From NCBI GenBank assembly GCA_937903605.1, contig CALCZC010000025.1, forward strand, positions 67,275 to 131,274: a DNA stretch of 64,000 nt, given 5' to 3'. Each line of letters begins with the position of its first letter. Position 1 is the stretch's first letter. Under the pieces are notes generated by a model. The model saw nothing but the letters and a program-made list of their open reading frames with translations, had not been told where the DNA came from and did not search any database. The stretch comes from an uncultured bacterium. GTDB lineage: Bacteria; Patescibacteriota; Patescibacteriia; Magasanikbacterales; GWA2-37-8. The position numbers and the translations under genes were made by a program. Positions 3,041-39,603 of this stretch are shown here, piece by piece.

Positions 3041-4096
3041 ATGAAATTACTTGTTTGTGGGGGCGCAGGCTTTATCGGATCCAATTTTATCCGTTATATG
3101 CTCAATAAATATCCGGATTACAAAATAGTCAATTATGACAAATTGACCTATGCCGGTAATTTGGAAAATCTAAAAGACATAGAAAATAATCCCAATTATA
3201 CTTTTGTTCAAGGTGATATTGTGGATTTGGAAAATTTGGATAAAGTTGTTAAAGAATATAGTATAACTCATGTAATAAATTTTGCGGCGGAAACCCATGT
3301 GGACAGATCTATTCATGGCGGCTGTAAGGACTTTGTCTTGACTAATACTTTGGGGGTACAAATGATTTTGGATGCTGTTCGCAATAATAAACTGGAAAAA
3401 TTCGTTAATGTTTCCACAGATGAAGTTTATGGATCTTTGGAGCTGGATGAACCAAGTCGTTTTACCGAAAGTACTCCTATAGAACCAAATATGCCATATG
3501 CAGCGGCCAAAGCCGGTGGAGATCTGATGTGTCGGGCTTATTTTGCCACACATAAAGTTCCGGTTGTAGTTACTCATTGTTCCAACAATTACGGACCATA
3601 CCAATTTCCGGAAAAATTGATTCCATTTTTTATTTTTAAACTTTTTAAAGGTGAAAAGGTTCCGGTTTATGGCGATGGGCTGAATGTGCGCGATTGGATT
3701 CATGTGGTTGATCATGCGCGAGCTTTGGATTTATTACTACACAAAGGTGTTCCCGGCGAGGTTTATAATATTGGTGTGGATAATGAAAGAAATAATTTGG
3801 AAATTACCAAAATGATTTTGAAATTGATGAATTTGGGTGAAGACAGGATAGAATATATTACCGATAGACCAGGGCACGATCGTCGTTATGCCATTGATGC
3901 GAGTAAAATAACCGCCCTTGGCTGGTCTCCGGAATATAACAAAGAAAAATTTGAACAAGGCCTTCAAGAAACCATACAGTGGTATTTGAACAACCAGCCC
4001 TGGGTGGAAAATCTTTATCAAAAAAAGAAAGATGAAATGAATAAATTTCAAAATGATTTACAAAGATCACAAGAAAAAATGAAATCTTCGACATAA
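3041..4096 (+). CDS. rfbB: dTDP-glucose 4,6-dehydratase
   Basis: N-terminal GGAGFIGSN Rossmann motif, a YxxxK active-site region, and 'YDKLTYAGNLENL' typical of RmlB. Confidence 0.9.
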   Translation: MKLLVCGGAGFIGSNFIRYMLNKYPDYKIVNYDKLTYAGNLENLKDIENNPNYTFVQGDIVDLENLDKVVKEYSITHVINFAAETHVDRSIHGGCKDFVLTNTLGVQMILDAVRNNKLEKFVNVSTDEVYGSLELDEPSRFTESTPIEPNMPYAAAKAGGDLMCRAYFATHKVPVVVTHCSNNYGPYQFPEKLIPFFIFKLFKGEKVPVYGDGLNVRDWIHVVDHARALDLLLHKGVPGEVYNIGVDNERNNLEITKMILKLMNLGEDRIEYITDRPGHDRRYAIDASKITALGWSPEYNKEKFEQGLQETIQWYLNNQPWVENLYQKKKDEMNKFQNDLQRSQEKMKSST

Positions 4097-4105
4097 TTTA
4101 TTCGT

Positions 4106-4522
4106 ATGCAAAAATTTCAACAATTTTCCCTGAAAAAAATAGAAGTTCCCGGTAAATTTGTTATGAGTCCGGTGGAACTCAAAGATTATATCGATTTTGA
4201 AGTGAAAAGAATTTATTATATAACAAAAGTGGAGGCCCCGACCGGCGCGCATTGTCATAAAGTGGAAGAAGAATTGTTTATTTTGCTTTCCGGCACTTGC
4301 ACGGCCGTGATAGACAAAGGAAACGGCTTGGAAGAAATTTCGATGACCGGACCGACTGATGCACTCTATGTTCCAGGTTATGTTTGGCATCATTTCAAAG
4401 ATTTTTCTCCGGACGCCATACTTTTGGCCGTTTCTTCCACCAATTACAATCCGGATAGAAGCGATTATATAGAAAACTACGAAGAATATTTGAAAGTAAG
4501 AGATGAAAAATTGAAAGTTTAA
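4106..4522 (+). CDS. cupin-fold dTDP-sugar isomerase/epimerase (FdtA/WxcM-like 3,4-ketoisomerase or short RmlC-like)
   Basis: 138-aa cupin with His-rich metal/active-site-like motifs (GAHCHK…, WHHF). It sits between rfbB and rfbD. It is shorter than a canonical RmlC. Confidence 0.5.
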   Translation: MQKFQQFSLKKIEVPGKFVMSPVELKDYIDFEVKRIYYITKVEAPTGAHCHKVEEELFILLSGTCTAVIDKGNGLEEISMTGPTDALYVPGYVWHHFKDFSPDAILLAVSSTNYNPDRSDYIENYEEYLKVRDEKLKV

Positions 4523-4523
4523 T

Positions 4524-5378
4524 ATGAAAGTTTTAATCTTGGGTTACAAAGGAATGCTCGGACAATCTTTGACCGATGAATTTAAAAACAACGGCTATGA
4601 AGTCGTACTTTGGGATAAAGAAGATATAGATGTTGGCGATTTTGAATTGTTAAACCAAAAAATAAAAGAAGTACAGCCTAATATTTTGATAAACGCCACG
4701 GCCGTGAATGCCGTGGATAAGATAGAAGAAGACCCAAATGTTTTTGAATTGGCTTGGAAAATTAATGGAGAAGCAATAGGGGAATTGGCCAAAATTTGTA
4801 AAGAACAAAATATTTTGTTGGTTCATTATTCGTCCGATTATGTTTTTTATGGTGATAAAAAAGAAGGTTACGATGAAAACAGTGAAACCAACCCCGTGGA
4901 CAAATACGGGCAAACCAAAGCTAGGGGAGAAAAATTATTGCAAGAAAAAGGGGATAAATATTATTTAATTCGTTTATCCAAACTGTTTGGCAAACCGGCA
5001 ATAAGTGAAGGAGCGAAAAAAAGTTTTGTAGATACTATGATCTGGTTGGCAAATGAAGGTGGTAAAACACACCTTGATCTGGTGGATGAGGAAATCAGTT
5101 CTCCGACTTACGCGCCGGATTTGGCAATATTTACCAGGAATTTGTTGGAAGAAAATAAACCCTTTGGAATTTACCATGGCGCCAATAGCGGAGTTTGTAG
5201 TTGGTATGAATTGGGGAAAGCGACGTTTGAATTGAAAAATATCAAAATAGATATTTCACCGGTGAGCGGGGATAAATTCCAGAGACCCGCAAAAAGACCG
5301 GTTTACTCGGAACTCAAAAATACGAAAATGCCGTTACAGAGAAGTTGGCAAGAAGCGCTCAAAGAGTATTTAAAATAA
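4524..5378 (+). CDS. rfbD: dTDP-4-dehydrorhamnose reductase
   Basis: N-terminal MKVLILGYKGMLG Rossmann fold, RmlD-like length and context. Its start overlaps the stop of the upstream gene. Confidence 0.8.
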   Translation: MKVLILGYKGMLGQSLTDEFKNNGYEVVLWDKEDIDVGDFELLNQKIKEVQPNILINATAVNAVDKIEEDPNVFELAWKINGEAIGELAKICKEQNILLVHYSSDYVFYGDKKEGYDENSETNPVDKYGQTKARGEKLLQEKGDKYYLIRLSKLFGKPAISEGAKKSFVDTMIWLANEGGKTHLDLVDEEISSPTYAPDLAIFTRNLLEENKPFGIYHGANSGVCSWYELGKATFELKNIKIDISPVSGDKFQRPAKRPVYSELKNTKMPLQRSWQEALKEYLK

Positions 5379-5383
5379 ATTAA

Positions 5384-5412
5384 CAAAAAACAGCCCAAAC
5401 AGGCTGTTTTTT
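5384..5412 (+). terminator. rho-independent terminator after rfbD
   Basis: Stem AACAGCC / loop CAAAC / GGCTGTT, followed by TTTTTTG. Confidence 0.7.
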
Positions 5413-5421
5413 GTTTTAATC

Positions 5422-5450
5422 TTGACAAAATAGCCAAAATGTGCTAATCT
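5422..5450 (+). promoter_or_regulatory. sigma70-like promoter (TTGACA – 17 nt – TGcTAATCT) for the high-GC ORF
   Basis: cTTGACAaaatagccaaaatgTGcTAATCT. It is near-identical to the promoter at 47179-47207. Confidence 0.6.
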
Positions 5451-5502
5451 AATTCCGTGTTCTTTGTTAGTTTCATAAACTTTTTTTGGAAGAGGTAAAA
5501 AC

Positions 5503-5961
5503 ATGACCAAGTACAAGCAGTGGGATCTGTTGACCGATGACGAGAAGTACAACCTGTGTAATCTCGGCCCCGACGGCAAGAAACAGTTCTACGAGGTCAT
5601 CATGGGCCAGTACGGGCAGCCGCTCATCGTGGCCGAACCCGACAGGGCCTTCCCGTGTCCGGCGACGCTCGAGTATGTCAACGCCAAGGGCGAGCAGGCG
5701 GTGCCCAATGAGAAGATCGCCGGGATCATCTGCAGTGATGGTAAGCGTTTCTCGCTGACCAACGCCGCCAACAAAGGGATCAGGATCGAGCCCAAGGAAG
5801 ACGGTTCGATTCAGGTCGACAATGAGGTCTGGTGGATCAAGACGCTGTTCCAGAAGGACAAGAACCGCGTCATCAACTACGATGCGTACCTTGTCCCGAC
5901 CAAGCCGGAGCAGGTCAAGGTCATCGAATTGGCCGACCTCGTCAGCTTCCTCTGTTCCTAG
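5503..5961 (+). CDS. hypothetical protein with compositionally foreign coding sequence (~55–60% GC, GC3-rich codons)
   Basis: 152-aa ORF with an RBS-like GGAAGAGG upstream. Codon usage (AAG, CAG, CTG, GAC, GGC, CCC) is unlike all neighbours. It has its own promoter and terminator. No domain recognised. Confidence 0.65.
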   Translation: MTKYKQWDLLTDDEKYNLCNLGPDGKKQFYEVIMGQYGQPLIVAEPDRAFPCPATLEYVNAKGEQAVPNEKIAGIICSDGKRFSLTNAANKGIRIEPKEDGSIQVDNEVWWIKTLFQKDKNRVINYDAYLVPTKPEQVKVIELADLVSFLCS

Positions 5962-5974
5962 TTTCCACGGGTTT

Positions 5975-6003
5975 GCCGATTGTCCCTAACAATCGGTTTT
6001 TTG
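5975..6003 (+). terminator. rho-independent terminator after the high-GC ORF
   Basis: GCCGATTGT-CCCTAAC-AATCGG followed by TTTTTTG. Confidence 0.7.
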
Positions 6004-6060
6004 TTTACAAAACACGTTTTTGATGATAAAATCAGAATAACCTTTTTAACTAAAAATTTT

Positions 6061-7119
6061 ATGAAAATTTTAGATAATTTAGCCAAAATTAAGCAACTTG
6101 ATAGTAAAAACATGCTTGGTAGTATTGAATTGCTGGGGCAACAAATAAAGGAAGTAGAAAAAGCAGTTAAAACTATAAAGATTCCGAAAAATTATAAAAA
6201 GTTTGAAAATATTATCGTGTGTGGGATGGGTGGATCAGCCCTGGGTGCGCATCTGATAAAAAGCGTATATAAAAATGATTTGAAAACTCCTTTGTCTATT
6301 GTGAACGGTTATCATTTACCCGGGTTTGCGAATAAAAATACTTTGGTGATACTTAGTAGTTATTCGGGAAACACCGAAGAAGTAATATCTTGCGCCGTTG
6401 AAGCTAAAAAGAAAAAATGTAAAATTGCCGTGATTGCCTCAGGTGGTAAATTGGCGACTTTGAGTAAAAAAGAAAAATATCCGGCTTTGATTTTTACTAC
6501 AGAAAATAATCCGTGCGGATCACCGCGTATGGGGTTGGGTTATTCCATTGTCGGACAGATTTATTTATTTTCTAAATTAGGTCTATTAAAAGTTAAAACT
6601 GAGAAGCTGAAAAAAATTCCGGAGTTAATAGGGGAGTTAAATAAAAAATTCGGTGTTAAAGTAAAAAGTATTTTGAAAGATGTTGCCGAAAAAACAAAAG
6701 GTAAATCCGTGTGGTTTGTCGGAGCCGAACATCTCGGAGGTTCGGCGCATATTGCCGCCAATCAGATGAATGAAAACGCCAAACGTTTTGCCGGATATTT
6801 TCTCATCCCGGAACTGAATCACCATTTGATGGAAGGGATGATAAATCCCAAAAACAATAAAGATAATTTGTTGTTTGTATTTCTAGAATCGGATTTGTAT
6901 AGCGATAATTTCAAAAAACGTTTTGTCTTGACTAAAGAAATTTTGAAAATGAATAAGATAAATTTTGTTTCTATCAAAGCGAAAGAAAAATCCGCTTTGG
7001 AACAAACTGTGGAAATATTGATTATGAGCTCTTATTTGAGTTTTTATTCTGCGATGGTAGAGGGGATTGATCCAACTGCGATTCCTTTCGTTGATTTTTT
7101 TAAGAAAAAATTGGTTTAA
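6061..7119 (+). CDS. bifunctional phosphoglucose/phosphomannose isomerase (SIS-domain, archaeal-type PGI/PMI)
   Basis: SIS motif GMGGSALGAHL. Start placed at ATG 6061 (MKILDNLAKI…); the ORF-track start at 5980 would overlap the upstream terminator. Confidence 0.7.
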   Translation: MKILDNLAKIKQLDSKNMLGSIELLGQQIKEVEKAVKTIKIPKNYKKFENIIVCGMGGSALGAHLIKSVYKNDLKTPLSIVNGYHLPGFANKNTLVILSSYSGNTEEVISCAVEAKKKKCKIAVIASGGKLATLSKKEKYPALIFTTENNPCGSPRMGLGYSIVGQIYLFSKLGLLKVKTEKLKKIPELIGELNKKFGVKVKSILKDVAEKTKGKSVWFVGAEHLGGSAHIAANQMNENAKRFAGYFLIPELNHHLMEGMINPKNNKDNLLFVFLESDLYSDNFKKRFVLTKEILKMNKINFVSIKAKEKSALEQTVEILIMSSYLSFYSAMVEGIDPTAIPFVDFFKKKLV

Positions 7120-7173
7120 TTATTACCAAAACTTACTTGCTTACTAGCTTACTAGCTTATAAGCTAACAAAAT

Positions 7174-8052
7174 ATGAAATTGTCAGTAATCACTGTTACT
7201 TGGAAAAATGAATCATCTATTGGAAAGCAAATAGAAAGCGTACAAAAGGGTGCGACTGGTTTAGAATTGGAGCAGATTATCGTGGACAACGGTTCAACGG
7301 ATAGGACAATAGAAGTTGTCAAAAATTATCCGCAAATCAAACTTATTCAAAATAAAGAAAATCTCGGTTTTGGTGCGGCTAATAATCAAGGTTATAAAAT
7401 CGCCACCGGTGACTATATTTTATTTTTGAACCCTGATAATGAAGTGGAACCAGATTCTTTATTAAAACTTTGTAAAATGATGGAACAACGTCCAGAAATT
7501 GGTTTGCTGAGTTGTAAATTGACTACTCAAGAAGGGCTATTTAATGAAGGTGCCAAACCTAGGCGTTATCCTGGTTTGATTGATCAATTGGCCTTGTTGC
7601 TTAAAATTCCACATCTATTTCCGAAAGTTTTAGATAAATATTTAATGAAAGACTTTAATCCGGAAATAGAACAGGAGGTAGAAACGGTGAGGGGAGCTTT
7701 TATGTTGCTACGAAAATCAACCTTAGATAAACTGGGCTGGGGTTTTGATCCACGATATTTTATTTGGTTTGAAGATGTGGACCTGTGTAAAGAAGTACAA
7801 AAATTGGGGCTAAAAGTATTTTATACCCCAGAAGTTTCTTGTGTTGATTTGGTTGGACAAAGTTTTAAACAGCAAGATAATTTATGGAAGCAAAAGATTT
7901 TTACTGCTAGTATGGTACAATATTTTCAAAAGTGGGAACCATGGTATGTGTGGGTTTGGGTTGTATTTTTAAGGCCAGTAGCAATATTTTTAGTTTGGTT
8001 TAAAGTCTCTCTAAAGAGAAAAGAAAAAGAAAAAATTAAGCCATATTTATAA
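7174..8052 (+). CDS. glycosyltransferase family 2
   Basis: LSVITVTWKN…VDNGSTDRT and a DxD region. GT-A fold signature. Confidence 0.8.
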   Translation: MKLSVITVTWKNESSIGKQIESVQKGATGLELEQIIVDNGSTDRTIEVVKNYPQIKLIQNKENLGFGAANNQGYKIATGDYILFLNPDNEVEPDSLLKLCKMMEQRPEIGLLSCKLTTQEGLFNEGAKPRRYPGLIDQLALLLKIPHLFPKVLDKYLMKDFNPEIEQEVETVRGAFMLLRKSTLDKLGWGFDPRYFIWFEDVDLCKEVQKLGLKVFYTPEVSCVDLVGQSFKQQDNLWKQKIFTASMVQYFQKWEPWYVWVWVVFLRPVAIFLVWFKVSLKRKEKEKIKPYL

Positions 8053-28175: not shown

Positions 28176-29105
28176 ATGAAAAGTTATTATCGTATAATGC
28201 TTGGCAAGGGTAGTGTTTATGCCAAAGAAGCAAGGTTAGAAAATTTTATGGGCGCCGGATGGCTTGGTGATATTGATTTAACAAATGAATTACCAGAAAG
28301 TCGAGTTGAATTCAATAAGAAATTCATACCTGTTTATTTAAAAAAACATCCTGATGCAAAGAAAATGTCAGCGGCCCTTGCTTGTGGTATGTTATACACG
28401 ATCGCAAAAGGTATTGTTATTGGTGATATTGTTTTATGTCCGGATGGGTCAGGTAATTATTATTTCGGAGAAGTCATTGGTGATTATCAATATGTGTCGG
28501 GAGTAAACTTACCGCACCGTCGTGCTGTGAAATGGTATTCCAAAATTATTCCCAGAGAAGAAATGAGTCAAGCTTTAAAATATTCCACTGGCGCCATTGG
28601 TACAGTTAGCAATATAACCGATCATGCTTCTGAATTAGAAAAATTGATATCAGGTAATGTTGAAAGTCCGATTGTTGTGACCGACGAGTCAATTGAAGAC
28701 CCAAGTGTATTTATGTTAGAGAAACATCTAGAGGATTTTTTGGTACAAAATTGGAACAATACTGAATTGGGTAAGAATTATAATATTTATGAAGAAGATG
28801 GTGAAATAGTGGGGCAACAATATCCTAGCGATACTGGTCCAATAGATATTTTGGCAATTAGTAAAGATAAAAAAACACTTTTGGTAGTTGAGTTAAAAAA
28901 AGGACGCGCAAGTGATGTGGTGGTCGGCCAAATTCAAAGGTACATGGGTTATGTAAAAGACGAATTAGCAGAAAAAAATCAAGAAATTAAAGGGGTTATA
29001 ATTGCTTTTGAAGATGATATTAAAATTCGCCGTGCTTTATCGGTTGCAAATAACATCGATTTTTATACTTATAAAATTGATTTTAAACTTGAAAAAAATA
29101 AATAA
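28176..29105 (+). CDS. YhcG/DUF1016-like PD-(D/E)xK nuclease-domain protein
   Basis: C-terminal …GPIDILAISKDKKTLLVVELKKGRASDVVVGQIQRYMGY… is a D…ExK motif resembling YhcG. It is the first gene of a tightly spaced 15-gene array. Confidence 0.5.
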   Translation: MKSYYRIMLGKGSVYAKEARLENFMGAGWLGDIDLTNELPESRVEFNKKFIPVYLKKHPDAKKMSAALACGMLYTIAKGIVIGDIVLCPDGSGNYYFGEVIGDYQYVSGVNLPHRRAVKWYSKIIPREEMSQALKYSTGAIGTVSNITDHASELEKLISGNVESPIVVTDESIEDPSVFMLEKHLEDFLVQNWNNTELGKNYNIYEEDGEIVGQQYPSDTGPIDILAISKDKKTLLVVELKKGRASDVVVGQIQRYMGYVKDELAEKNQEIKGVIIAFEDDIKIRRALSVANNIDFYTYKIDFKLEKNK

Positions 29106-29107
29106 TT

Positions 29108-30682
29108 ATGACTAATTTTAATACTTCAAAAGAACAAGAACGTGCCGAGCTTCATCGTGCTATTTGGCAAATTGCTAATGATCTAAGGGGAAGTGTAGAT
29201 GGTTGGGATTTCAAACAATATGTTTTGGGAATTTTGTTTTATAGATTTATTGGTGAAAATCTTTCTAATTATATCAATAAACAACAGAGAAAAGTTAAAG
29301 GGTTTGAAAATTTTGAATATTCAAATTTGAGCGATAAAGAAGCAGAATTGGGTAAAAAAGAAATTGTGTTGGCAAAGGGTTTCTATATTCTTCCAAGTGA
29401 GCTTTTTGTAAATGTTCGTAAAAATGCTAAAAACAATGCAAATTTAAACGAAACTCTTTCAAGAGTTTTTAGTAATATTGAAAATTCTGCAAAAGGTTTT
29501 GATAGTGAGGATGATATAAAAGGGTTATTTGCTGACCTTGATGTCAATTCTCCAAAACTTGGAAATACAGTTGAAAAACGTAATCAAAAATTAGTAAAAC
29601 TTTTAGATGCTATTGGAGATCTTCAATTAGGAAATTACTCTGATAATACTATCGATGCTTTCGGTGATGCTTATGAGTTTTTAATGACCATGTATGCTTC
29701 AAATGCTGGTAAATCTGGAGGTGAATTTTATACACCACAAGAAGTTAGTGAATTACTTGCAAAAATTACGACTGTGGGTAAAAAAGAGGTAAACAAAGTT
29801 TATGATCCATGTTGTGGTTCAGGATCGCTTCTTTTGAAATTTGCCAAAGTTCTTGGTAAAGAAAATGTCCGGCTTGGTTTTTTTGGTCAAGAAATAAATC
29901 TTACCACCTATAATTTGTGTCGTATCAACATGTTTTTACACGATATCAACTATAATCATTTTGATATTGAGCTCGGTGACACACTAACTGATCCCAAACA
30001 TTGGGATGACGAACCTTTTGATGCTATAGTTTCTAACCCGCCTTATTCAATTAATTGGGAAGGGGACGCTAATCCGCTTTTAATAAACGACCCTCGTTTT
30101 TCGCCTGCTGGAGTACTTGCTCCAAAGAGTAAAGCTGATTTGGCTTTCACCATGCACATGCTTTCGTGGCTTTCTACCAGCGGAACGGCGGCGATTGTTG
30201 AATTCCCTGGAGTTCTTTATCGTGGTGGAGCTGAAGCAAAAATCCGCAAATATTTGATTGATAACAATTACGTTGATGCTGTAATACAACTTCCACTAGA
30301 TCTTTTCTTTGGTACAACCATTGCTACTTGTGTTATCGTTTTAAAGAAGAGTAAAAAAGACAATAAGACTTTATTTATCGATGCTTCCGCTGAATTTGTT
30401 CGGGGTGGTAATAAAAATAAATTAAACGAAGAAAATCGTAAAAAGATCCTGAATGCTTTTATAGAAAGAAAAGATATAGAACATTTTGCAAAAATTATAG
30501 ATAACAAAGCTATTGCAGAAAATGATTACAATCTAGCAGTTTCTAGTTATGTGGAGCAAAAAGACACTAGAGAAGCAGTGGACATAAAAGAACTTAATAA
30601 AGAAATTGAGAGAATCGTAAAAAGACAAAGTGAATTAAGGTTGGCAATTGATGAGATTGTGAGGGAGATTGAGGGTAATTAA
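29108..30682 (+). CDS. hsdM: Type I restriction-modification system, DNA methyltransferase subunit M
   Basis: N6-adenine MTase motif IV NPPYS, an AdoMet-binding region (DPCCGSGSLL), and an HsdM N-terminal domain. Confidence 0.9.
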   Translation: MTNFNTSKEQERAELHRAIWQIANDLRGSVDGWDFKQYVLGILFYRFIGENLSNYINKQQRKVKGFENFEYSNLSDKEAELGKKEIVLAKGFYILPSELFVNVRKNAKNNANLNETLSRVFSNIENSAKGFDSEDDIKGLFADLDVNSPKLGNTVEKRNQKLVKLLDAIGDLQLGNYSDNTIDAFGDAYEFLMTMYASNAGKSGGEFYTPQEVSELLAKITTVGKKEVNKVYDPCCGSGSLLLKFAKVLGKENVRLGFFGQEINLTTYNLCRINMFLHDINYNHFDIELGDTLTDPKHWDDEPFDAIVSNPPYSINWEGDANPLLINDPRFSPAGVLAPKSKADLAFTMHMLSWLSTSGTAAIVEFPGVLYRGGAEAKIRKYLIDNNYVDAVIQLPLDLFFGTTIATCVIVLKKSKKDNKTLFIDASAEFVRGGNKNKLNEENRKKILNAFIERKDIEHFAKIIDNKAIAENDYNLAVSSYVEQKDTREAVDIKELNKEIERIVKRQSELRLAIDEIVREIEGN

Positions 30683-30688
30683 ATTAAT

Positions 30689-32890
30689 ATGAATAAATTA
30701 AAAGTTAAATTAGAAAATTGTTACGGAATAAAAAAGCTTGAACACGAGTTTGATTTTTCTAATTTTAAAACTTTTGTTATCTATGCACCCAACGGCGTAA
30801 TGAAGACATCATTTGCAAAAACCCTTAGCGATATTGCAAAAGGAGAAAAACCCTGTGATCAAATAGATGATACTTTAACACCAATTTTTAATTTTTTAAT
30901 TGATGATTCTGAAAATCAAATCCAATCAGAAGAAATATGTGTTATAGAGTCATACAACAAAAAAGCGTTTGATTCTGAAGATAAGATTCTTACGCTTCTA
31001 GCAGACGACGAGACCAAAAAGGAATATTTGGCAATATTTAACGAAATTGAATCACTTAAAAAAGCTTCTCTTCCTGGATTAAAAAAAATATCAGGCAGTA
31101 GTAACTACGAATCTGAAATTACAGAAGCATTTTCTAATCTTGATAAGAAAAATATTTTTGAAATTTTTGAGGCCGTTTTAAATGACATTGAAGCATCGAA
31201 AGATTCATTTGAATTTAAATATAACGATGTTTTTGATAAAGGTGGAAAAGTTAAAAAATTTCTGGCAGATAATTTTGCATTATTAAAAGAGTACATTGAA
31301 AAATACAATGATCTGATTAGTAAGTCTACTTTTTTTGCAAAAAATGCCAACCATATTTTTGGAACAACGGAAGCAAAAATTCTTGGTAAGTCGCTTGAGG
31401 GCGATGAATATTTTACTGCTGGGCATAAATTAGTATTAAAATCACATGGGGATGTATCTGCTAAAAATAAATTATCAGAAATAATTGATGAGGAAATTGA
31501 AAAAGTTTTTAATGATAAAGACCTGAAAGATATTTTTGAAAAAATCGATAATTTGCTCAATACTAATAAAGAACTTCAAGCATTTAAGAAGATTATTGAA
31601 AGAGACAATTCAATTTTATTGAGATTAAATAATTACGATGCTTTTAGAAGAGAGGTGTGGTTTAGTTTTTTAAAACAAATTGAGACAAGCATAAAATCAT
31701 TAGTTGAATTATATAATCAGAAAAAGGTTGATTTAGAAAGGATTATACAAAAAGCAAAGGACAGTCAGTCACAATGGGAAAGTGCTATTAAAGAATTTGA
31801 AAACAGATTTGTTAATAATCCATTTACTCTTGAAATTCAAAATAAGGCGGACGCTGTATTAAACGAAAAGACACCAGTAATTGATTTTAAATTTCAAGGA
31901 AAAGATATCGAAAGAAACAATTTGATAGAAAATGTATTGAGCCAAGGAGAGAGACGAGCTTTTTATATTTTAAATGTTATTTTTGAGATTAAATCTCGGC
32001 AGCTACAAAACAAAAAAACATTATTTATTATTGATGACATAGCGGACTCGTTTGATTACAAAAATAAATATGCAATTATTGAATATTTAAATGATTTATC
32101 CAAAGAAGATAATTTCTATTCAATAATTTTAACGCACAACTTTGACTTTTTTAGGACACTTCAATCAAGAATCTTGCAAGATAATAAGTGGAACTATTCT
32201 TTTATAGCAGAAAAACTAACAGATGAAATTAAACTAATTAAAGCAGGTAGTAAAAATGTTACTGACCCATTTACTAACTGGAAAGCAGGTCTTAATAACA
32301 ACAAAAAACATTTAATTGCTTGTATTCCTTTTGTGCGAAATTTGATTGAATTTAAAGATGGACGAAATGATGGATATAAGCTTCTAACGCACACTCTTCA
32401 TAGAAAATCTTTGGACGAAACTATTAAAGCAACCCCAGATATTTCAATTGCTGATCTACAAGCACCGTTTTCGAGTGTTGTGTCTGGTGTTGCATTTACA
32501 TTTACAGACACAAATGAAAAAATTATTGATGTAATTGAGGAACAGATAGCAGTGATAAAAAATGACAGAAATACCGATTCAATTGTTCTAGAAGATAAAA
32601 TTATTTTTGCTATTGGAATAAGATTGAAAGCAGAAGAATATATGTGGTCGAAGGTTACAAACCAAGATCTAATAAACGGATCGCAAACAGGTAAGCTGTT
32701 TCAGCGATACAAAGATCAATTTAAACAAGATCCGACTCATGTTGAAGCTATAAAAATCTTAGAAAGCGTAAATATAATGACTCCTGAGAACATACACCTG
32801 AACTCTTTTATGTATGAACCAATTTTAGATATAGGCATAGATGAGTTAAAGAGTTTACACGATAAGGTTTGCAATTTAATGAATAATTAG
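30689..32890 (+). CDS. ABC-type (Rad50/SMC-like) ATPase with ~400-aa helical insertion and C-terminal R-x3-E…H module; RloC-like anticodon-nuclease candidate
   Basis: Degenerate Walker A APNGVMKTS. ABC signature LSQGERRAF, Walker B LFIIDDIADSFD and H-loop ILTHNFDFF about 400 aa downstream. C-terminal GIRLKAEEY…(39 aa)…H. Lies between hsdM and hsdS. Confidence 0.5.
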   Translation: MNKLKVKLENCYGIKKLEHEFDFSNFKTFVIYAPNGVMKTSFAKTLSDIAKGEKPCDQIDDTLTPIFNFLIDDSENQIQSEEICVIESYNKKAFDSEDKILTLLADDETKKEYLAIFNEIESLKKASLPGLKKISGSSNYESEITEAFSNLDKKNIFEIFEAVLNDIEASKDSFEFKYNDVFDKGGKVKKFLADNFALLKEYIEKYNDLISKSTFFAKNANHIFGTTEAKILGKSLEGDEYFTAGHKLVLKSHGDVSAKNKLSEIIDEEIEKVFNDKDLKDIFEKIDNLLNTNKELQAFKKIIERDNSILLRLNNYDAFRREVWFSFLKQIETSIKSLVELYNQKKVDLERIIQKAKDSQSQWESAIKEFENRFVNNPFTLEIQNKADAVLNEKTPVIDFKFQGKDIERNNLIENVLSQGERRAFYILNVIFEIKSRQLQNKKTLFIIDDIADSFDYKNKYAIIEYLNDLSKEDNFYSIILTHNFDFFRTLQSRILQDNKWNYSFIAEKLTDEIKLIKAGSKNVTDPFTNWKAGLNNNKKHLIACIPFVRNLIEFKDGRNDGYKLLTHTLHRKSLDETIKATPDISIADLQAPFSSVVSGVAFTFTDTNEKIIDVIEEQIAVIKNDRNTDSIVLEDKIIFAIGIRLKAEEYMWSKVTNQDLINGSQTGKLFQRYKDQFKQDPTHVEAIKILESVNIMTPENIHLNSFMYEPILDIGIDELKSLHDKVCNLMNN

Positions 32891-32891
32891 T

Positions 32892-34010
32892 ATGAAAAAA
32901 CACCAATCAAAAATTGAAAAACTAATTTCAGAACTATGCCCTAATGGTGTGGAGTTTAAAATGCTTGGAGAACTAGAAGATGATAATTTGATTAAACTTG
33001 GACGTGGAAATGTAATTTCAAAAACTGATATTACAAACACACCTGGTGATTATCCGGTTTATTCTTCATCTGCAAATGATGAGGGCGAATTTGGCAGGTA
33101 TGGAAAATATATGTTTGATGATGAAAGAATTACGTGGTCAATCGATGGGGGCGGTAGATTTTTTTATAGACAGTCACATAAATATTCTGTAACAAATGTA
33201 TCGGGGTGGTTAAAAGTAAATGATAATAATGTATTAAATTTACGTTATTTGTATTTTGTTCTGTCAAATGCTTGGTTAACAAAAGTTTTTGATTATACAA
33301 AAAAAGCTCATCCTTCAGTAATTAGAGAAGAGTACAAAATCCCTATTCCACCTCTTGCAATTCAAGAAGAAATTGTAAAAATTCTTAATAGTTTTACGGA
33401 GCTGGAAGCGGAGCTGGAAGCGGAGCTGGAAGTAAGAAAGAAACAGTATGATTATTACCATAAAGAACTTTTTGATTTAAGGGATGATTTCGAATTAAAA
33501 ACACTTGGGGATATTTACGAATTTCAATATGGAGAAGGAAATACTATTCCTACTTCAGGGGATAAATTTCCAGTATATGGAAGTAATGGTATTGTTGGTT
33601 CTCATGAAAAATTCAACAGTGAAGATGCTCCGGTGATTGGACATATTGGAGCTTACGCAGGAATAGTAAATTGGGCTCAAGGAAAACACTTTGTTACATA
33701 CAACGGAGTTATTTGTAAAATCAAGCCAGGAGTTAATCCAAGGTTTGGTTATCATCTGTTGATTCTCCAAGATTTTAGATCAAAAGCAAACGCAGGGTCT
33801 CAACCTTTTGTTTCTTACGACATGCTTAGAAAAACCGAAGTAAAAATACCTCCTATTTTAATACAAAATAAAATTGCAGATGTCCTTGATAAATTTGATG
33901 CACTTGTAAACGATATTTCAGTTGGTTTGCCTGCCGAGCTCAAAGCACGTAGGTCACAATACGAATATTATAGAAATAAACTTCTTGATTTTAAAGAGTT
34001 AGAAAAATAA
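32892..34010 (+). CDS. hsdS: Type I restriction-modification system, specificity subunit S
   Basis: Two target-recognition domains. Central and C-terminal conserved helices (…LAIQEEIVKILNSFTELEAEL… and …LPAELKARRSQYEYYRNKLLDF). Confidence 0.85.
   Translation: MKKHQSKIEKLISELCPNGVEFKMLGELEDDNLIKLGRGNVISKTDITNTPGDYPVYSSSANDEGEFGRYGKYMFDDERITWSIDGGGRFFYRQSHKYSVTNVSGWLKVNDNNVLNLRYLYFVLSNAWLTKVFDYTKKAHPSVIREEYKIPIPPLAIQEEIVKILNSFTELEAELEAELEVRKKQYDYYHKELFDLRDDFELKTLGDIYEFQYGEGNTIPTSGDKFPVYGSNGIVGSHEKFNSEDAPVIGHIGAYAGIVNWAQGKHFVTYNGVICKIKPGVNPRFGYHLLILQDFRSKANAGSQPFVSYDMLRKTEVKIPPILIQNKIADVLDKFDALVNDISVGLPAELKARRSQYEYYRNKLLDFKELEK
33398..33433 (+). repeat. 3× 12-bp in-frame tandem repeat (GGAGCTGGAAGC; EAEL units) in the central conserved region of hsdS
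   Basis: ggagctggaagcggagctggaagcggagctggaagt. Confidence 0.85.
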
Positions 34011-34011
34011 T

Positions 34012-35166
34012 ATGGTTGAATTCGACTCAATCTCTGAATTGTTTGTTAATATAAAAAATGATTTATTATCAGATATTGATAAAAAGAGTATTGCTTTACT
34101 TTATGCTTTTAATTCTACTGGTAAGACAAGGCTTTCTATTGAGTTTGATGAATTAAACGAAAATGATAATGGTTATATTAAAGTACTATCTTATAATGCT
34201 TTTTTAGAAGACCTGTTTGTCTGGGATAATAAGAACCTTGTCTTAAATTTTAGTCCGGATGATTGGCGGATAAGATTTATTCAGGATCAAGGTTTAGAAA
34301 ATAAAATTGTAGAGAATTTTAAATTATTTACTAATTCAAAAGTTGAGCCTATCTTTGAAATTGAAACACATAGAGCAGAGCTCGATAAATTTATATTAGA
34401 CAAATCTAAACTAGGTGGAAATAAGATAGGAAAAATTTCTTTTTTTATTGCTTCAGGAGATGGAAAAAATAAAGATAGCATAAAAATTTCTAAAAGTGAA
34501 GAAAGTATACTGATATGGTCTGTTTTTTATTCTATTTTAGAGATTGTTATAGAAGAATTAAATACACCAGAAGAACATCGTTCAACTAATCTTTTTAATC
34601 ACCTTGAATATATTGTAATAGATGATCCTGTTTCTTCGATCGATGATGAAAGAATTATTTCTTTAGCAGTAAAATTATGTAGGACTATAAAGTTAAATGA
34701 AAATAGAAAAATAAACTTTTTAATAACCACACATCACGCTTTATTTTTTAATGTTTTATTTAATTCTTTCAAAAAATTTCAAAAATCTGATGTAAAAAAA
34801 TATTGTTATATTTTATCAAAAAATGGTAATATTTTTATATTAGAAAGCCAGAAAGATGATTCACCGTTTGCATATCATATTTTAGTTAAAAATAAGCTTA
34901 AAGAAGCAATAAAAAATGGAAGTCTTGAAAAATACCATTTTAATTTATTTAGAACTTTATTAGAAAAAACGGCAAATTTTTTAGGATATACTGATTGGGG
35001 TGAGTGTATTTATAAAGAAGAAAACAGAGAAGAAGTTAAAAGACTTATTAATTTATATAGTCATAGCAAATTATCAGAATTGGAAAGTGGAAGTTTAAGT
35101 AATGCTGATAAAGAGTTGTTTGCAAATACTTTTAATTCTTTTATGGAAGATTTTAAATATAAATAA
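34012..35166 (+). CDS. PrrC-like anticodon nuclease candidate (ABC-type ATPase N-domain + C-terminal R-x3-E…H module)
   Basis: Walker A FNSTGKTRL, Walker B YIVIDDPVSSIDD, H-loop LITTHHALFF. C-terminal FRTLLEK…(37 aa)…YSHSK. Sits between hsdS and hsdR, as in the prr locus. 384 aa (PrrC is about 396). Confidence 0.55.
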   Translation: MVEFDSISELFVNIKNDLLSDIDKKSIALLYAFNSTGKTRLSIEFDELNENDNGYIKVLSYNAFLEDLFVWDNKNLVLNFSPDDWRIRFIQDQGLENKIVENFKLFTNSKVEPIFEIETHRAELDKFILDKSKLGGNKIGKISFFIASGDGKNKDSIKISKSEESILIWSVFYSILEIVIEELNTPEEHRSTNLFNHLEYIVIDDPVSSIDDERIISLAVKLCRTIKLNENRKINFLITTHHALFFNVLFNSFKKFQKSDVKKYCYILSKNGNIFILESQKDDSPFAYHILVKNKLKEAIKNGSLEKYHFNLFRTLLEKTANFLGYTDWGECIYKEENREEVKRLINLYSHSKLSELESGSLSNADKELFANTFNSFMEDFKYK

Positions 35167-35169
35167 ATT

Positions 35170-38100: not shown

Positions 38101-38226
38101 GATATTTTGCCACCAGTATCAATGTTTTCCCCAAACGGAGAAAGAACTAAAAAAAGAGAAGGTGTTTTGGATAAATTAACAAGATATTTTGAGAGGTTTT
38201 TTGATATTAGTAAAAGAGATTTATAG
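35170..38226 (+). CDS. hsdR: Type I restriction enzyme, R subunit (helicase/endonuclease)
   Basis: N-terminal PD-(D/E)xK (…LIHIELKRRG). SF2 motifs TTGSGKT (I), FDECHRSQ (II) and further helicase motifs. 1018 aa. Confidence 0.9.
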   Translation: MSKNNNYNLVAENTQSTVVAEYVSGTKRLSQYQSEDALEKAFIKQLESQAYEYIAIKSENDLILNLRKQLEKLNSYTFSDAEWDRFFTSEIANPNQSIEEKTATIQENEVKNLYGDDGKFKRNITLLDKKNIHNNSLQVINQYVTEDGQRSNRYDVTVLVNGLPLIHIELKRRGVAIQEAFNQINRYQRESFWASSGLFEYVQLFVISNGTHTKYYSNTTRSQHVKESQEGSKNKGKKTSNSFEFTSWWADATNRPITDLMDFAKTFFAKHAILNILTKYCVFTTDRLLLVMRPYQIVATERILNRIEVSTNYKKLGTTEAGGYIWHTTGSGKTLTSFKTAQLASKLSYVDKVLFVVDRKDLDYQTMKEYDKFEKGAANSNTSTAVLKKQLEDSNSRIIITTIQKLDRFIAKNSSHTIFDGHIVIIFDECHRSQFGEMHSSIIKSFNNYHLFGFTGTPIFSKNASAGGRPDFKTTEQAFGEKLHTYTIVDAISDKNVLPFKVDYVSTVKEAENIEDAQVKDIDREAVLSAPERLENIVRYIREHFDQKTKRNSFYKIQDRRLAGFNSVFAVSSIEVAKKYYLEFKRQLADEPSDKKLKVATIFSFGVNDEDIDGMIDENSEDTSGLDVSSREFLESAIKDYNKMFGTSYDTSSEKFQNYYKDVSEKVKKREIDILIVVNMFLTGFDATTLNTLWVDKNLRLHGLLQAYSRTNRILNSIKTFGNIVCFRNLEKATNEAIALFGDKEAGGIVLLKAYEDYYNGYKEGNKEVRGYKSFVNELLAKFPIGERIIGEQNQKDFIKLYGAILRVKNILATFDEFNGNEILSDRDVQDYHSMYIDLYNEFRKADDSEKENINDDIVFEMELIKQVEINIDYVLGLIKIYHEDHVKNKELLIDINKAIDSSVELRNKKDLINQFITSLDVHSIIDEDWQKFVEEKKVQELEQIIETENLDHEATYKFIKNSFRDGNIPITGTAISDILPPVSMFSPNGERTKKREGVLDKLTRYFERFFDISKRDL

Positions 38227-38232
38227 GTTTGT

Positions 38233-38946: not shown

Positions 38947-38953
38947 TAAAAAT

Positions 38954-39592: not shown

Positions 39593-39603
39593 TTTAAATA
39601 AAT

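What the first reader, a model, noticed from the sequence alone, without database searches (positions are those of the whole stretch)
5415..6003. Compositionally foreign (~55–60% GC) 152-aa gene cassette with private promoter and terminator inserted between rfbD and pgi
Every neighbouring gene is about one-third GC with AT-ending codons. This ORF uses GC-ending codons throughout. It is bracketed by an upstream terminator (5384–5412), a consensus-like promoter (5422–5450), a good RBS, and its own terminator (5975–6003). It has no recognisable domain. Possible explanations are recent horizontal acquisition from a high-GC donor, a phage-derived gene, or an engineered insert. The alternative-frame ORFs inside it are GC artefacts.
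Basis: seen in the sequence. Interest (0 to 1): 0.7.

Follow-up and report, generated by a model that had tools for sequence, protein, structure and literature searches.

The report
GC-recoded accessory gene in AT-rich bacterium
A small gene of unknown function in an AT-rich, uncultured Magasanikbacteria-type genome uses almost only G- or C-ending codons; it is not a recent foreign import, because relatives have kept the same gene G/C-rich at silent positions for a very long time.

Summary
ORF 5503-5961 (152 aa) has 57% GC and GC3 0.86. The 63 other ORFs in the window average GC3 0.32 (highest 0.48), so it lies 6.9 SD out. Both terminators, the promoter and the RBS are present.

The favoured interpretation, a recent import from a high-GC donor, a phage or an engineered insert, is not supported.
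- The protein belongs to an uncharacterised family seen only in candidate-phyla-radiation bacteria (138 clusters). It has no phage, plasmid, Pfam or PDB relatives, and its confident all-beta model matches no known fold.
- Every member of the Magasanik-type clade is GC3-enriched (0.63-0.99 against backgrounds of 0.24-0.45). Other clades are compositionally normal.
- The amino-acid composition stays AT-genome-like.
- Four-fold sites are saturated for C/G exchange yet remain G or C.

The gene is nevertheless accessory. It was missing from the rfbD|pgi slot in 7 of 7 relatives sampled without reference to it. Other GC-rich cassettes can occupy that slot. Its alleles are mosaic and do not track the flanking genes.

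A long-acting force keeps the silent sites G/C. I think selection on the transcript is most likely. GC-biased gene conversion is the main rival. Protein function is unknown.

The parts
5382..5415 (.). Hairpin terminator of the upstream rfbD-like gene. It forms on both strands and marks the left edge of the slot.
   Evidence: Terminator scan: 14-15 bp stem followed by a T-run.
5394..5416 (+). Left copy of an imperfect 23-nt direct repeat that brackets the cassette (terminator 3' arm, T-run, then GTTT).
   Evidence: the repeat finder family D1: 5394-5416 and 5984-6006, 83% identical, 590 nt apart. Empty slots in relatives carry a single copy of terminator-TTTTTTGTTT-ACAAAA. The repeat may only reflect two similar terminators.
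5422..5450 (+). Promoter of the GC-rich gene: -35 TTGACA (5422-5427), 17-nt spacer, extended -10 TGc-TAATCT (5442-5450).
   Evidence: Read from the sequence. The -35 hexamer is identical in six loci down to 79% flank identity, and the -10 region differs in one locus at one position of TGc and one position of the hexamer. The consensus scan did not call it because the -10 hexamer matches 3 of 6.
5491..5495 (+). Shine-Dalgarno sequence AGAGG, 7 nt upstream of the ATG.
   Evidence: Sequence. AGAGGT is invariant in alignment A2.
5503..5961 (+). Coding sequence of the 152-aa protein 'X'. GC3 is 0.86, and A occupies only 3% of third positions.
   Evidence: ORF list. Composition. 22 close homologues and 138 family clusters. 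dN is well below dS. AlphaFold2 model has pLDDT 91.9.
5975..6003 (+). Intrinsic terminator of X. Its 3' part (5984-6006) is the right copy of the direct repeat.
   Evidence: Terminator scan: 9-bp stem, 5-nt loop, T-run. Repeat D1.
6004..6032 (+). Promoter of the downstream pgi-like gene (TTTACA, 17 nt, TAAAAT, with TG). It marks the right edge of the slot.
   Evidence: Promoter scan, 10 of 12 matches. The TTTACAAAA element is present in 5 of 7 aligned slot junctions, including the empty slots; the -10 part is seen in only some of them.

Best explanation
X is a genuine protein-coding gene for a small, probably cytoplasmic, all-beta protein. It belongs to an uncharacterised family restricted to the candidate phyla radiation (CPR). 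It is expressed as its own one-gene transcription unit.

In Magasanikbacteria-type genomes X is an accessory gene. It usually occupies a variable slot between the rfbD-like and pgi-like genes of a sugar-nucleotide and glycosyltransferase cluster. Its alleles are exchanged and recombined between strains.

Its GC-richness is not a leftover of foreign origin. A long-acting directional force keeps silent codon positions at G or C, and in several lineages the UTRs as well, while the protein keeps the amino-acid make-up of an AT-rich organism. This much is shown.

The inferred step is the cause. I think the force is most likely natural selection on the nucleotide composition of the transcript itself. 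A GC-rich mRNA, often capped by GC hairpins in its UTRs, would be hard for AU-directed RNases to cut. Such an mRNA could stay translatable when ordinary AT-rich messages are degraded. The selection is not for tRNA-matched codons and not for a specific RNA fold.

The biochemical role of the protein is unknown. From its neighbours in this lineage, a role linked to cell-envelope glycan variation is the best guess.
For: X is coding and real:
- GC1/GC2/GC3 of 0.53/0.33/0.86 shows three-base periodicity.
- dN is far below dS in every comparison.
- 22 homologues have conserved length, and 138 family clusters were found.
- The AlphaFold2 model has pLDDT 91.9.

The GC-richness is long-standing, not recent:
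- Orthologues at the same X-pgi-GT1-4-NTP locus occur in loci whose flanking proteins are 56-60% identical. Their GC3 is 0.63-0.92 against 0.32-0.43 for neighbouring genes.
- Every member of the Magasanik-type clade in the tree is elevated. Log-odds against contig background are 0.8-5.1. L014 has GC3 0.99 against 0.38.

Silent sites have turned over but stay G/C:
- At conserved four-fold codons, distant pairs show as many C/G differences as identities. For window versus L030 the counts are 16 against 14. Over all pairs they are 734 C/G, 1196 same-S and 534 S/W.
- In a neutral AT-biased model, that much C/G turnover leaves less than 1.5% of the excess GC3.

The composition does not look donor-derived:
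- K/(K+R) is 0.53-0.85 and GARP is 0.19-0.28 at every GC3 from 0.14 to 0.99, like the host background (0.72 and 0.20). Neither correlates with GC3.
- Two other GC-rich cassettes near this cluster are R-rich with GARP 0.31-0.32, which does look foreign.
- All 45 loci examined have AT-rich flanks.
- There are no phage or plasmid relatives.

This is not ordinary translational optimisation:
- Ribosomal-protein genes use CAA 100%, AAA 87% and GAA 95%. X uses CAG 8 of 8, AAG 13 of 15 and GAG 8 of 11.

The effect extends over the whole transcript:
- The 5' UTR (100 nt) and 3' UTR (60 nt) are 0.44-0.72 GC in L013, L014, L016, L018, L021, L030 and L031. The DNA beyond them is 0.30-0.44 GC in most of these loci (0.51 in L030 and 0.66 in L021).
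- The 3' UTRs of L013, L018 and L030 (read in full for L013) carry several GC hairpins before the terminator.

The effect is compositional, not a specific structure:
- The fold z-score is -1.65.
- The RNAalifold covariation term is -0.71 over 13 orthologues.
- There is no Rfam match.

Recombination alone does not raise GC here:
- GT1 shows clear allele replacement (71% aa against 92-99% for its neighbours) but keeps GC3 0.28-0.35.

X is accessory and its alleles are shuffled:
- X is absent from the slot in 7 of 7 pgi-anchored relatives.
- L026 flanks are 94-99% aa identical to the window, but X is 65% identical.
- L010 matches the window allele at 99-100% over codons 1-62, then drops to 70-89%.
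Against: - There is no expression or RNA half-life data. High expression is inferred only from a conserved strong-looking promoter and RBS.
- In the window's own lineage the UTRs are AT-rich (0.29 and 0.38). There the enrichment is confined to codons.
- Three unrelated genes in or near the same variable slot are also GC-rich: L045 NUDIX, L045 HD-like and L048 half-dehydratase. One cause acting on the slot or the cassette pool, such as biased conversion or a shared GC-rich gene pool, would be more economical than separate selection on each transcript.
- Mosaic alleles and enrichment in non-optimal GC-ending codons are exactly what GC-biased gene conversion predicts (PMC4450053).
- Homologues in other CPR clades are not enriched. 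Whatever the benefit is, it is not intrinsic to the protein.
- The tRNA complement could not be examined.
Confidence: 0.4

Rival explanations
1. GC-biased gene conversion. The rfbD|pgi slot and its cassettes form a recombination hotspot. Repair of heteroduplexes favours G/C, which drives silent sites and some UTRs to high GC regardless of any benefit.
For: - Alleles are mosaic, with breakpoints inside X.
- The X phylogeny is uncoupled from the flanks.
- X is enriched in GC-ending codons that are non-optimal for the host. This is the pattern reported for recombining bacterial genes (PMC4450053).
- UTRs are GC-rich in several lineages.
- Other, unrelated cassettes in the same slot are also GC-rich.
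- There is precedent for GC-rich recombining loci in AT-rich genomes: vls cassettes are 49.1% GC against 28.6% for the chromosome (PMC11499132).
Against: - Neighbouring genes that also show allele replacement (GT1), and the rest of this mosaic cluster, keep GC3 0.27-0.37.
- In the window lineage the GC step coincides with the start and stop codons. The allele-variable 5' UTR stays AT-rich.
- X is equally GC-rich when it sits outside the slot, in unrelated neighbourhoods (L014, L016, L021, L031, L040) and directly abutting GC3 0.33 genes.
- The magnitude, log-odds up to 5, is far beyond the few-percent effects described for bacteria.
- Recombination into a recipient that lacks the cassette forms no heteroduplex inside it (inference).
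Confidence: 0.22
2. X alleles evolve in an unsampled GC-rich reservoir, such as a GC-rich CPR lineage or a mobile element. They are repeatedly and recently transferred into AT-rich Magasanikbacteria, so their composition has not had time to ameliorate.
For: - The distribution is patchy, and the slot is empty in relatives.
- The gene has its own promoter and terminator.
- X sits in different genomic locations in different lineages.
- The gene tree disagrees with the flanks.
- The slot also holds cassettes whose protein composition does look GC-genome-like: L048 half-dehydratase with K8/R17 and GARP 0.31.
Against: - None of 45 loci has GC-rich flanks; the range is 0.28-0.48.
- There are no phage or plasmid relatives.
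- The protein's K/R ratio, GARP, FYMINK and GC2 (0.31-0.40) are those of AT-rich genomes. They do not shift with GC3 despite 35-48% amino-acid divergence among the GC-rich alleles.
- By the Muto-Osawa relation (from my own knowledge), GC3 of 0.86-0.99 would go with GC2 near 0.5.
- The AT-rich promoter is nearly identical across alleles whose coding sequences are only 63-80% identical.
- The scenario needs a dozen or more independent recent transfers into the same slot.
Confidence: 0.12
3. Codon-gated translation. X is built from the host's rarest codons, so its translation depends on scarce or conditionally available tRNAs or wobble modifications. The principle is that of bldA/TTA in Streptomyces, or codon-biased stress regulons. 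Alternatively, slow decoding may help this beta-rich protein fold.
For: - X's codon use is close to the inverse of the ribosomal-protein genes: CAG, AAG and GAG against CAA, AAA and GAA.
- The bias is maintained across the clade.
Against: - C is preferred over T in two-fold NNY boxes (TTC 5/5, ATC 10/11, TAC 6/7). Both codons are normally read by the same G34 tRNA (from my own knowledge).
- GC enrichment extends into untranslated regions in many lineages.
- GC1 also rises with GC3 (rho 0.62).
- The tRNA repertoire could not be checked.
Confidence: 0.1
4. The GC-rich segment is really a structured non-coding RNA or another nucleic-acid element, and the ORF is incidental.
For: - GC-rich islands in AT-rich genomes are classically RNA genes (from my own knowledge).
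- Some orthologues have long GC-rich UTRs.
Against: - GC enrichment is strongly three-periodic.
- dN is far below dS, and ORF length and protein motifs are conserved.
- The protein model is confident.
- There is no Rfam match.
- The fold z-score is -1.65.
- There is no covariation across 13 orthologues.
Confidence: 0.02

Closest known systems
Atypical-GC accessory genes of polysaccharide (O-antigen/capsule, rfb-type) gene clusters
   Same: - X sits inside a dTDP-sugar, isomerase and glycosyltransferase cluster.
- The locus is mosaic between strains. It has a variable slot, whole-gene allele replacement such as GT1, and alternative accessory genes.
- Its composition differs sharply from the rest of the genome.
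   Different: - The deviation is towards high GC in an AT-rich genome.
- It is concentrated at silent sites while the protein composition remains native-like.
- It persists across a whole clade.
- X has no recognisable sugar-pathway domain.
- X also occurs outside such clusters in other lineages.
Phage 'morons': single genes with their own promoter and terminator and a deviant composition, inserted between two genes
   Same: - The unit is self-contained: promoter, one ORF, terminator.
- It lies between two otherwise adjacent genes.
- Its composition differs from its neighbours.
- Relatives have the two neighbours directly abutting.
   Different: - The context is chromosomal housekeeping and glycan genes, not a prophage.
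- No homologues occur in IMG/VR, INPHARED or PHROGs.
GC-rich recombining variable loci of AT-rich bacteria, for example Borrelia vls cassettes
   Same: - A locus about 20 points richer in GC than an AT-rich genome is maintained over evolutionary time. vls is 49.1% against 28.6%, and its authors infer strong selective pressure (PMC11499132).
- Sequence exchange is segmental and mosaic.
   Different: - X has no GC skew (0.02, against 0.52 for vls) and no marked excess of G-runs (7, against 6 C-runs).
- There are no silent cassettes or paralogues in the 64-kb window.
- Exchange is between strains, not within a genome.
- X has no signal peptide or surface-protein features (seen by reading the sequence; no predictor was run).
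Codon-bias-based translational control (bldA/TTA in Streptomyces; codon-biased stress regulons)
   Same: A gene built from codons that are rare for its own genome.
   Different: - Nearly every codon is affected, not a few sentinel codons.
- UTRs are affected too.
- No evidence about tRNAs could be obtained.

Membership tests
Recently acquired gene from a high-GC donor (compositional island) | Base composition and codon usage deviate from the host genome | tested here: met
   GC3 is 0.86 against a mean of 0.316, z = 6.9.
Recently acquired gene from a high-GC donor (compositional island) | Amino-acid composition (GC1, GC2, K/R, GARP) reflects the donor's GC pressure | tested here: not met
   GC2 is 0.33, K/(K+R) 0.79 and GARP 0.21, matching the host background (0.32, 0.72, 0.20). 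None of these correlates with GC3 across 26 homologues.
Recently acquired gene from a high-GC donor (compositional island) | Closest relatives lie in GC-rich taxa or elements | tested here: not met
   All 45 loci carrying a homologue have 0.28-0.48 GC flanks, and those that are named are CPR bins. Not all 138 clusters could be traced to contigs.
Recently acquired gene from a high-GC donor (compositional island) | Absent from close relatives, or present with signs of amelioration | tested here: inconclusive
   X is absent from the slot in 7 of 7 pgi-anchored relatives. It is present at the same slot and still GC3-rich in lineages with 56-60% flank identity. Silent sites are saturated for C/G exchange, so there is no amelioration.
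Phage moron | Own promoter and factor-independent terminator around a single ORF | tested here: met
Phage moron | Located within a prophage or phage genome, or has phage homologues | tested here: not met
   The neighbours are ClpB, FtsW, rfbB, fdtA, rfbD, pgi and glycosyltransferases. No relatives occur in viral contigs, phage genomes or PHROGs.
Structured non-coding RNA (GC island in an AT-rich genome) | Conserved secondary structure with covariation, or an Rfam match | tested here: not met
   Rfam found only terminator-like noise below threshold. The fold z-score is -1.65. The RNAalifold covariation term is -0.71.
Translationally optimised, highly expressed gene | Codon usage resembles that of ribosomal-protein genes of the same genome | tested here: not met
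   X is close to the inverse for Lys, Glu and Gln and for the four-fold boxes. Ribosomal-protein GC3 is 0.26-0.38.
vls/P1-type intragenomic antigenic-variation locus | Expression site plus silent donor cassettes; GC skew or G-runs | tested here: not met
   There is no second copy in the 64-kb window. GC skew is 0.02. The rest of the 348-kb contig was not available.
Diversity-generating retroelement target | A variable repeat with a matching template repeat and a reverse transcriptase nearby | not tested
   The only hint is a bAvd-family gene after pgi in some relatives (L002, L003, L005, L045). It is absent from the window. Divergence between X alleles spans the whole gene, not a C-terminal variable repeat.

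The most novel reading that the evidence does not exclude
X may be an example of a 'nuclease-proof' gene. Selection would have recoded the whole transcript to G/C wherever the protein allows, up to GC3 0.99, and added GC hairpins to the UTRs. The message would then survive AU-directed RNases, such as toxin-antitoxin mRNA interferases, phage shut-off nucleases or bulk RNase Y/J decay, that destroy the organism's ordinary AT-rich mRNAs. The protein would then still be made during stress or infection. If so, extreme gene-specific GC3 in AT-rich genomes would be a readable signature of a previously unrecognised expression strategy. An even more radical variant is expression of the gene inside a GC-rich host cell. 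That variant is not excluded, but nothing supports it.
Probability: 0.15. Interest if true: 0.8.

Novelty: new variant of a known kind. Interest (0 to 1): 0.58.

Why it matters
Whether bacterial GC content is shaped by selection, by biased gene conversion or only by mutation is a long-running dispute (PMC2936529, PMC2936535, PMC4450053). Most of the evidence consists of small genome-wide shifts.

Here one gene family offers a much larger contrast. Silent sites are held at 63-99% G/C inside genomes whose other genes sit at 24-45%. This holds over enough time to saturate C/G exchange. The amino-acid composition is unchanged, and sister clades with normal composition serve as controls.

This natural experiment can separate selection on the transcript from conversion bias using data that already exist: metagenomic polymorphism and metatranscriptomes.

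It is also a caution for annotation. Atypical composition together with a private promoter and terminator does not by itself mean recent foreign origin. In addition, gene callers can choose the wrong strand in such islands, as happened in L048.

Finally, X defines an uncharacterised CPR protein family with a confidently predicted fold that has no match in the PDB.

Tried and rejected
- **Domain and sequence searches** of X against Pfam, PHROGs, NCBIfam, PADLOC and PDB sequences, as a single sequence and as a profile, gave nothing.
- **Domains in longer family members:** Pfam finds nothing in the N-terminal extensions. The very long hits (MucBP, Ig, CBM9) are spurious weak matches.
- **Phage or plasmid origin:** no relatives in IMG/VR, INPHARED or PLSDB.
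- **RNA element:** rejected by Rfam, single-sequence folding and alignment folding.
- **Overlapping or antisense gene:** antisense ORFs of about 95 codons recur. They occur only in the frame whose stop codons are suppressed by sense GC3, and they mirror the sense-strand conservation. I treat them as artefacts.
- **tRNA-based explanation:** there is no tRNA gene in the window, and only a handful in 25 loci. This could not be tested.
- **Conserved UTR motif across lineages:** alignments show similarity only between close relatives.
- **Silent copies or paralogues** of X in the window: none.
- **Transcription-coupled relief of AT mutation bias:** I considered this and set it aside, because ribosomal-protein genes are not GC3-enriched.
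- **Literature searches** for a described equivalent in Patescibacteria or Magasanikbacteria found nothing.
- **Source names:** The listing of cluster members returned no taxon or functional names for the ten more distant family clusters looked up (one is labelled only 'hypothetical protein').
Full report
**1. The observation**

The window is AT-rich, 0.349 GC outside the feature. In 200-nt windows GC jumps to 0.55-0.63 only between about 5500 and 6000. No other 400-nt window in the 64 kb exceeds 0.47.

The jump coincides with ORF 5503-5961 (+), 152 aa. Its GC1/GC2/GC3 is 0.53/0.33/0.86. Among 64 non-overlapping ORFs it is the only outlier. The other 63 have mean GC3 0.316, SD 0.078 and maximum 0.48, so z = 6.9.

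- hairpin terminators at 5382-5415 and at 5975-5997 plus a T-run;
- a -35 TTGACA at 5422-5427, a 17-nt spacer, and an extended -10 TGc-TAATCT at 5442-5450. The consensus scan did not call this promoter. The -35 hexamer is identical in six loci, and the -10 region differs in a single locus at two positions;
- an AGAGG ribosome-binding site 7 nt before the ATG.

The identical protein occurs on 23 independently assembled contigs, so this is not an assembly artefact. The window is part of ENA ERZ724087 NODE_23, 348 kb.

**2. It is a real protein gene of an uncharacterised family restricted to the candidate phyla radiation (CPR)**

- X has no match in Pfam, PHROGs, NCBIfam, PADLOC or PDB sequences.
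- It has 22 close homologues of about 150 aa at 53-100% identity. The only source names are 'hypothetical protein', from Candidatus Magasanikbacteria bins.
- A profile search of 1.84 billion cluster representatives finds 138 clusters, 98 of them below 1e-10.
- dN is much smaller than dS in all comparisons, and many residues are invariant.
- Some longer family members carry an N-terminal amphipathic-looking helix and a low-complexity linker. Others are tandem duplications.
- There is no Rfam match, no significant folding (z = -1.65) and no covariation across 13 orthologues. The RNA-gene reading is therefore rejected.

**3. The GC-richness is old and actively maintained**

Orthologues lie at the same place, upstream of pgi-GT1-GT2-GT3-GT4-NTP-transferase, in many loci. 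In some of these loci the flanking proteins are only 56-60% identical to the window's. In each case X is the GC3 outlier of its contig. Examples are 0.70 against 0.34 (L011), 0.86 against 0.42 (L013), 0.91 against 0.40 (L030), 0.88 against 0.43 (L036) and 0.99 against 0.38 (L014).

On a neighbour-joining tree the whole Magasanik-type clade is elevated. This includes L017 and L034, at 0.29 against 0.15-0.16 in a 28% GC genome. Other clades are normal or slightly low (L019, L020, L022, L023, L052). L021, L040 and marginally L051 are additional elevated cases. Expressed as log-odds against the contig background, the bias is 0.8-5.1 in the Magasanik-type clade and -0.9 to -0.15 in the normal clades.

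At conserved four-fold codons, distant GC-rich alleles differ by C/G exchange about as often as they agree. For window versus L030 the counts are 16 against 14, while A/T states stay rare. Silent sites have therefore been hit repeatedly but return to G or C. In a simple AT-biased neutral model, that amount of C/G turnover would leave less than 1.5% of the excess GC3.

Between close relatives, X has dS of 0.011-0.043 while its flanks have 0.13-0.52. This fits constrained silent sites, recent allele sharing, or both.

**4. It does not look like a gene from a GC-rich donor**

- X's amino-acid composition matches its AT-rich host. K/(K+R) is 0.79, GARP 0.21 and GC2 0.33, against window background values of 0.72, 0.20 and 0.32.
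- Across 26 homologues spanning GC3 0.14-0.99, these measures do not track GC3.
- By contrast, two other GC-rich genes near the cluster are arginine-rich with GARP 0.31-0.32, as expected for truly GC-lineage proteins. They are the L048 half-size NDP-hexose 2,3-dehydratase and a 147-aa ORF in L009.
- None of the 45 loci examined has GC-rich flanks.
- No relative exists in viral contigs, phage genomes or plasmids.

**5. It is not ordinary codon optimisation**

The ribosomal-protein genes of this window use CAA 100%, AAA 87% and GAA 95%, and they prefer T or A in four-fold boxes. X uses CAG 8/8, AAG 13/15, GAG 8/11, GTC 9/11 and ATC 10/11. Only 3% of its third positions are A.

**6. It is nevertheless accessory and recombining**

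All loci in sections 2-3 were found through X, so I drew an X-blind sample. I searched with the pgi protein and fetched seven relatives with 57-83% pgi identity. X is absent from all seven.
- In five of them (L044, L046, L047, L049, L050) rfbD is followed directly by pgi.
- In L045 the slot holds a NUDIX gene (GC3 0.75) and an HD-like gene (GC3 0.64).
- In L048 the slot holds a half-size NDP-hexose 2,3-dehydratase homologue (GC 0.57) with a similar TTGACAAAAT promoter and its own terminator. That family is also seen only in CPR.

In lineages outside the Magasanik synteny, X sits in unrelated neighbourhoods. It is always a separate, GC-rich unit, sometimes directly abutting GC3 0.33 genes.

Allele history is uncoupled from the flanks:
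- L026 has pgi and glycosyltransferases 94-99% identical to the window, but X only 65% identical.
- L002 has flanks with dS of 0.13-0.52 but a nearly identical X.
- L010 is a mosaic. Codons 1-62 are 99-100% identical to the window allele. The remainder is 70-89% identical and resembles the L012 allele at the 3' end.

A 23-nt imperfect direct repeat brackets the 590-bp unit. It consists of a terminator arm, a T-run and GTTT. Empty slots carry a single copy followed by the pgi -35. This may mark how the unit is gained or lost, or it may merely reflect two similar terminators.

**7. What keeps it GC-rich**

Shown: a persistent directional force acts on silent sites.

In L013, L014, L016, L018, L021, L030 and L031 the UTRs are also GC-rich (0.44-0.72). 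The DNA beyond them is AT-rich in most of these loci, though not downstream in L021 (0.66) or L030 (0.51). The 3' UTRs of the related loci L013, L018 and L030 carry several GC hairpins before the terminator. In the window lineage the UTRs are AT-rich. No specific RNA structure is conserved, so the target is composition rather than a fold.

I favour selection on the transcript, for stability or resistance to AU-directed RNases, and therefore robust expression. My reasons are these:
- The enrichment follows transcription-unit or ORF boundaries in many independent contexts.
- It travels with X wherever the gene sits.
- It ignores tRNA optimality.
- GT1, a neighbouring gene that shows clear allele replacement, keeps normal GC3.

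This step is an inference. No expression data are available.

The main rival is GC-biased gene conversion. It is supported by the mosaic alleles, by the enrichment in non-optimal GC-ending codons (the pattern in PMC4450053), and by the fact that unrelated cassettes in the same hypervariable slot are GC-rich too. The Borrelia vls cassettes are 49.1% GC against 28.6% for the chromosome (PMC11499132). They show that recombination-active loci can be held GC-rich in AT-rich genomes. X, however, lacks their GC skew (0.02) and has no silent copies in the window.

A hidden GC-rich reservoir and codon-gated translation are less likely, for the reasons given under each rival explanation.

**8. Function of the protein**

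The function is unknown. X has no signal peptide or membrane segment that I could see by reading the sequence. It has a conserved acidic-hydrophobic C-terminal tail (ELGDLDLF in most members, ending in LCS in the window's subgroup). Its invariant charged and aromatic residues are compatible with a binding or catalytic site.

In this lineage it shares a variable slot with sugar-nucleotide-related accessory genes inside a glycan-synthesis cluster. A role connected with envelope-glycan variation is therefore the best guess. The association does not hold in other CPR clades.

**9. Verdict**

The interpretation as a recent foreign, phage-derived or engineered insert is not supported. What is supported is an accessory cassette with its own expression signals.

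The feature is best described as a native CPR accessory gene whose silent sites are kept G/C. This is an unusual and possibly undescribed variant of the atypical-composition genes found in polysaccharide loci. It is also a promising natural test case for the debate over selection versus biased conversion in bacterial GC content.

Noticed in passing
L045:2911-3546 and 3674-4855; L048:4263-4880: In relatives that lack X, the same rfbD|pgi slot holds other single-gene GC-rich units. These are a NUDIX-domain gene (GC3 0.75), an HD-like 393-aa gene (GC3 0.64) and a half-size NDP-hexose 2,3-dehydratase homologue (GC 0.57). The last has a TTGACAAAAT promoter and its own terminator, and its family is also seen only in CPR (11 homologues).
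   Followed up: partly
L048:4179-4985 (- strand) versus 4263-4880 (+ strand): The public gene call for this GC-rich island is a 267-aa ORF on the minus strand with no domain. The plus-strand 205-aa ORF matches PF03559 at 1.5e-22. GC-rich islands in AT-rich genomes can mislead gene callers about strand.
   Followed up: yes
L009:16872-17516 (same as L013:16866-17510): Another GC-rich ORF (GC 0.61, R-rich, GARP 0.32, no Pfam hit) lies just after the NTP-transferase gene, at the far end of the same glycan cluster.
   Followed up: no
window 7174-8052 (GT1) compared with L002:11497-12411: The first glycosyltransferase after pgi is only 71% identical between the window and L002, while neighbouring genes are 92-99% identical. 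This is whole-gene allele replacement, yet the gene keeps normal GC3 (0.28-0.35).
   Followed up: partly
L002:11114-11476, L003:10653-11015, L005:4244-4606, L045:6043-6405 (no counterpart in window 7119-7174): A 120-aa bAvd / 23S-rRNA-IVP family gene sits between pgi and GT1 in several close relatives but is absent from the window. This is another presence/absence difference in the cluster. bAvd proteins are accessory factors of diversity-generating retroelements, but I did not look for a reverse transcriptase or template repeat.
   Followed up: no
window 28176-40179: A run of ORFs has unusually low GC3 (0.14-0.24, against a window mean of 0.32), with regional GC down to 0.21. This is a compositional island in the opposite direction from X. 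I did not run any domain search on it.
   Followed up: no
window 5394-5416 and 5984-6006: An imperfect 23-nt direct repeat (83% identical, 590 nt apart) brackets the X unit. Recombination between the two copies would excise X and recreate the terminator-TTTTTTGTTT-ACAAAA junction seen in empty slots. It may equally be coincidental similarity between two terminators.
   Followed up: partly
L015:8476-8889: The X homologue here appears truncated at the N-terminus. It directly abuts the rfbD-like gene, and pgi is missing downstream. Its GC3 is still 0.80-0.88.
   Followed up: no
proteins P0025, P0028, P0032, P0044, P0051: Longer family members share an N-terminal glycine- and lysine-rich segment that looks like an amphipathic helix (for example AAISGIISGVKNAISKIGNIGKNIF). 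A low-complexity linker follows, before the X domain. This suggests membrane association in some lineages.
   Followed up: no
L014:6739-6861: A LOOT RNA (RF03000, 82.8 bits, E 4.9e-14) lies about 3 kb upstream of the X homologue in this contig.
   Followed up: no
L031:3621-7177: In this lineage the GC-rich X gene lies immediately upstream of a 234-aa ORF (GC3 0.33) and about 2 kb downstream of two short ORFs that look, from their N-terminal sequences only, like a ribosomal protein S16 gene and a KH-domain gene. The neighbours were not annotated. It is an example of X at a quite different insertion point.
   Followed up: no
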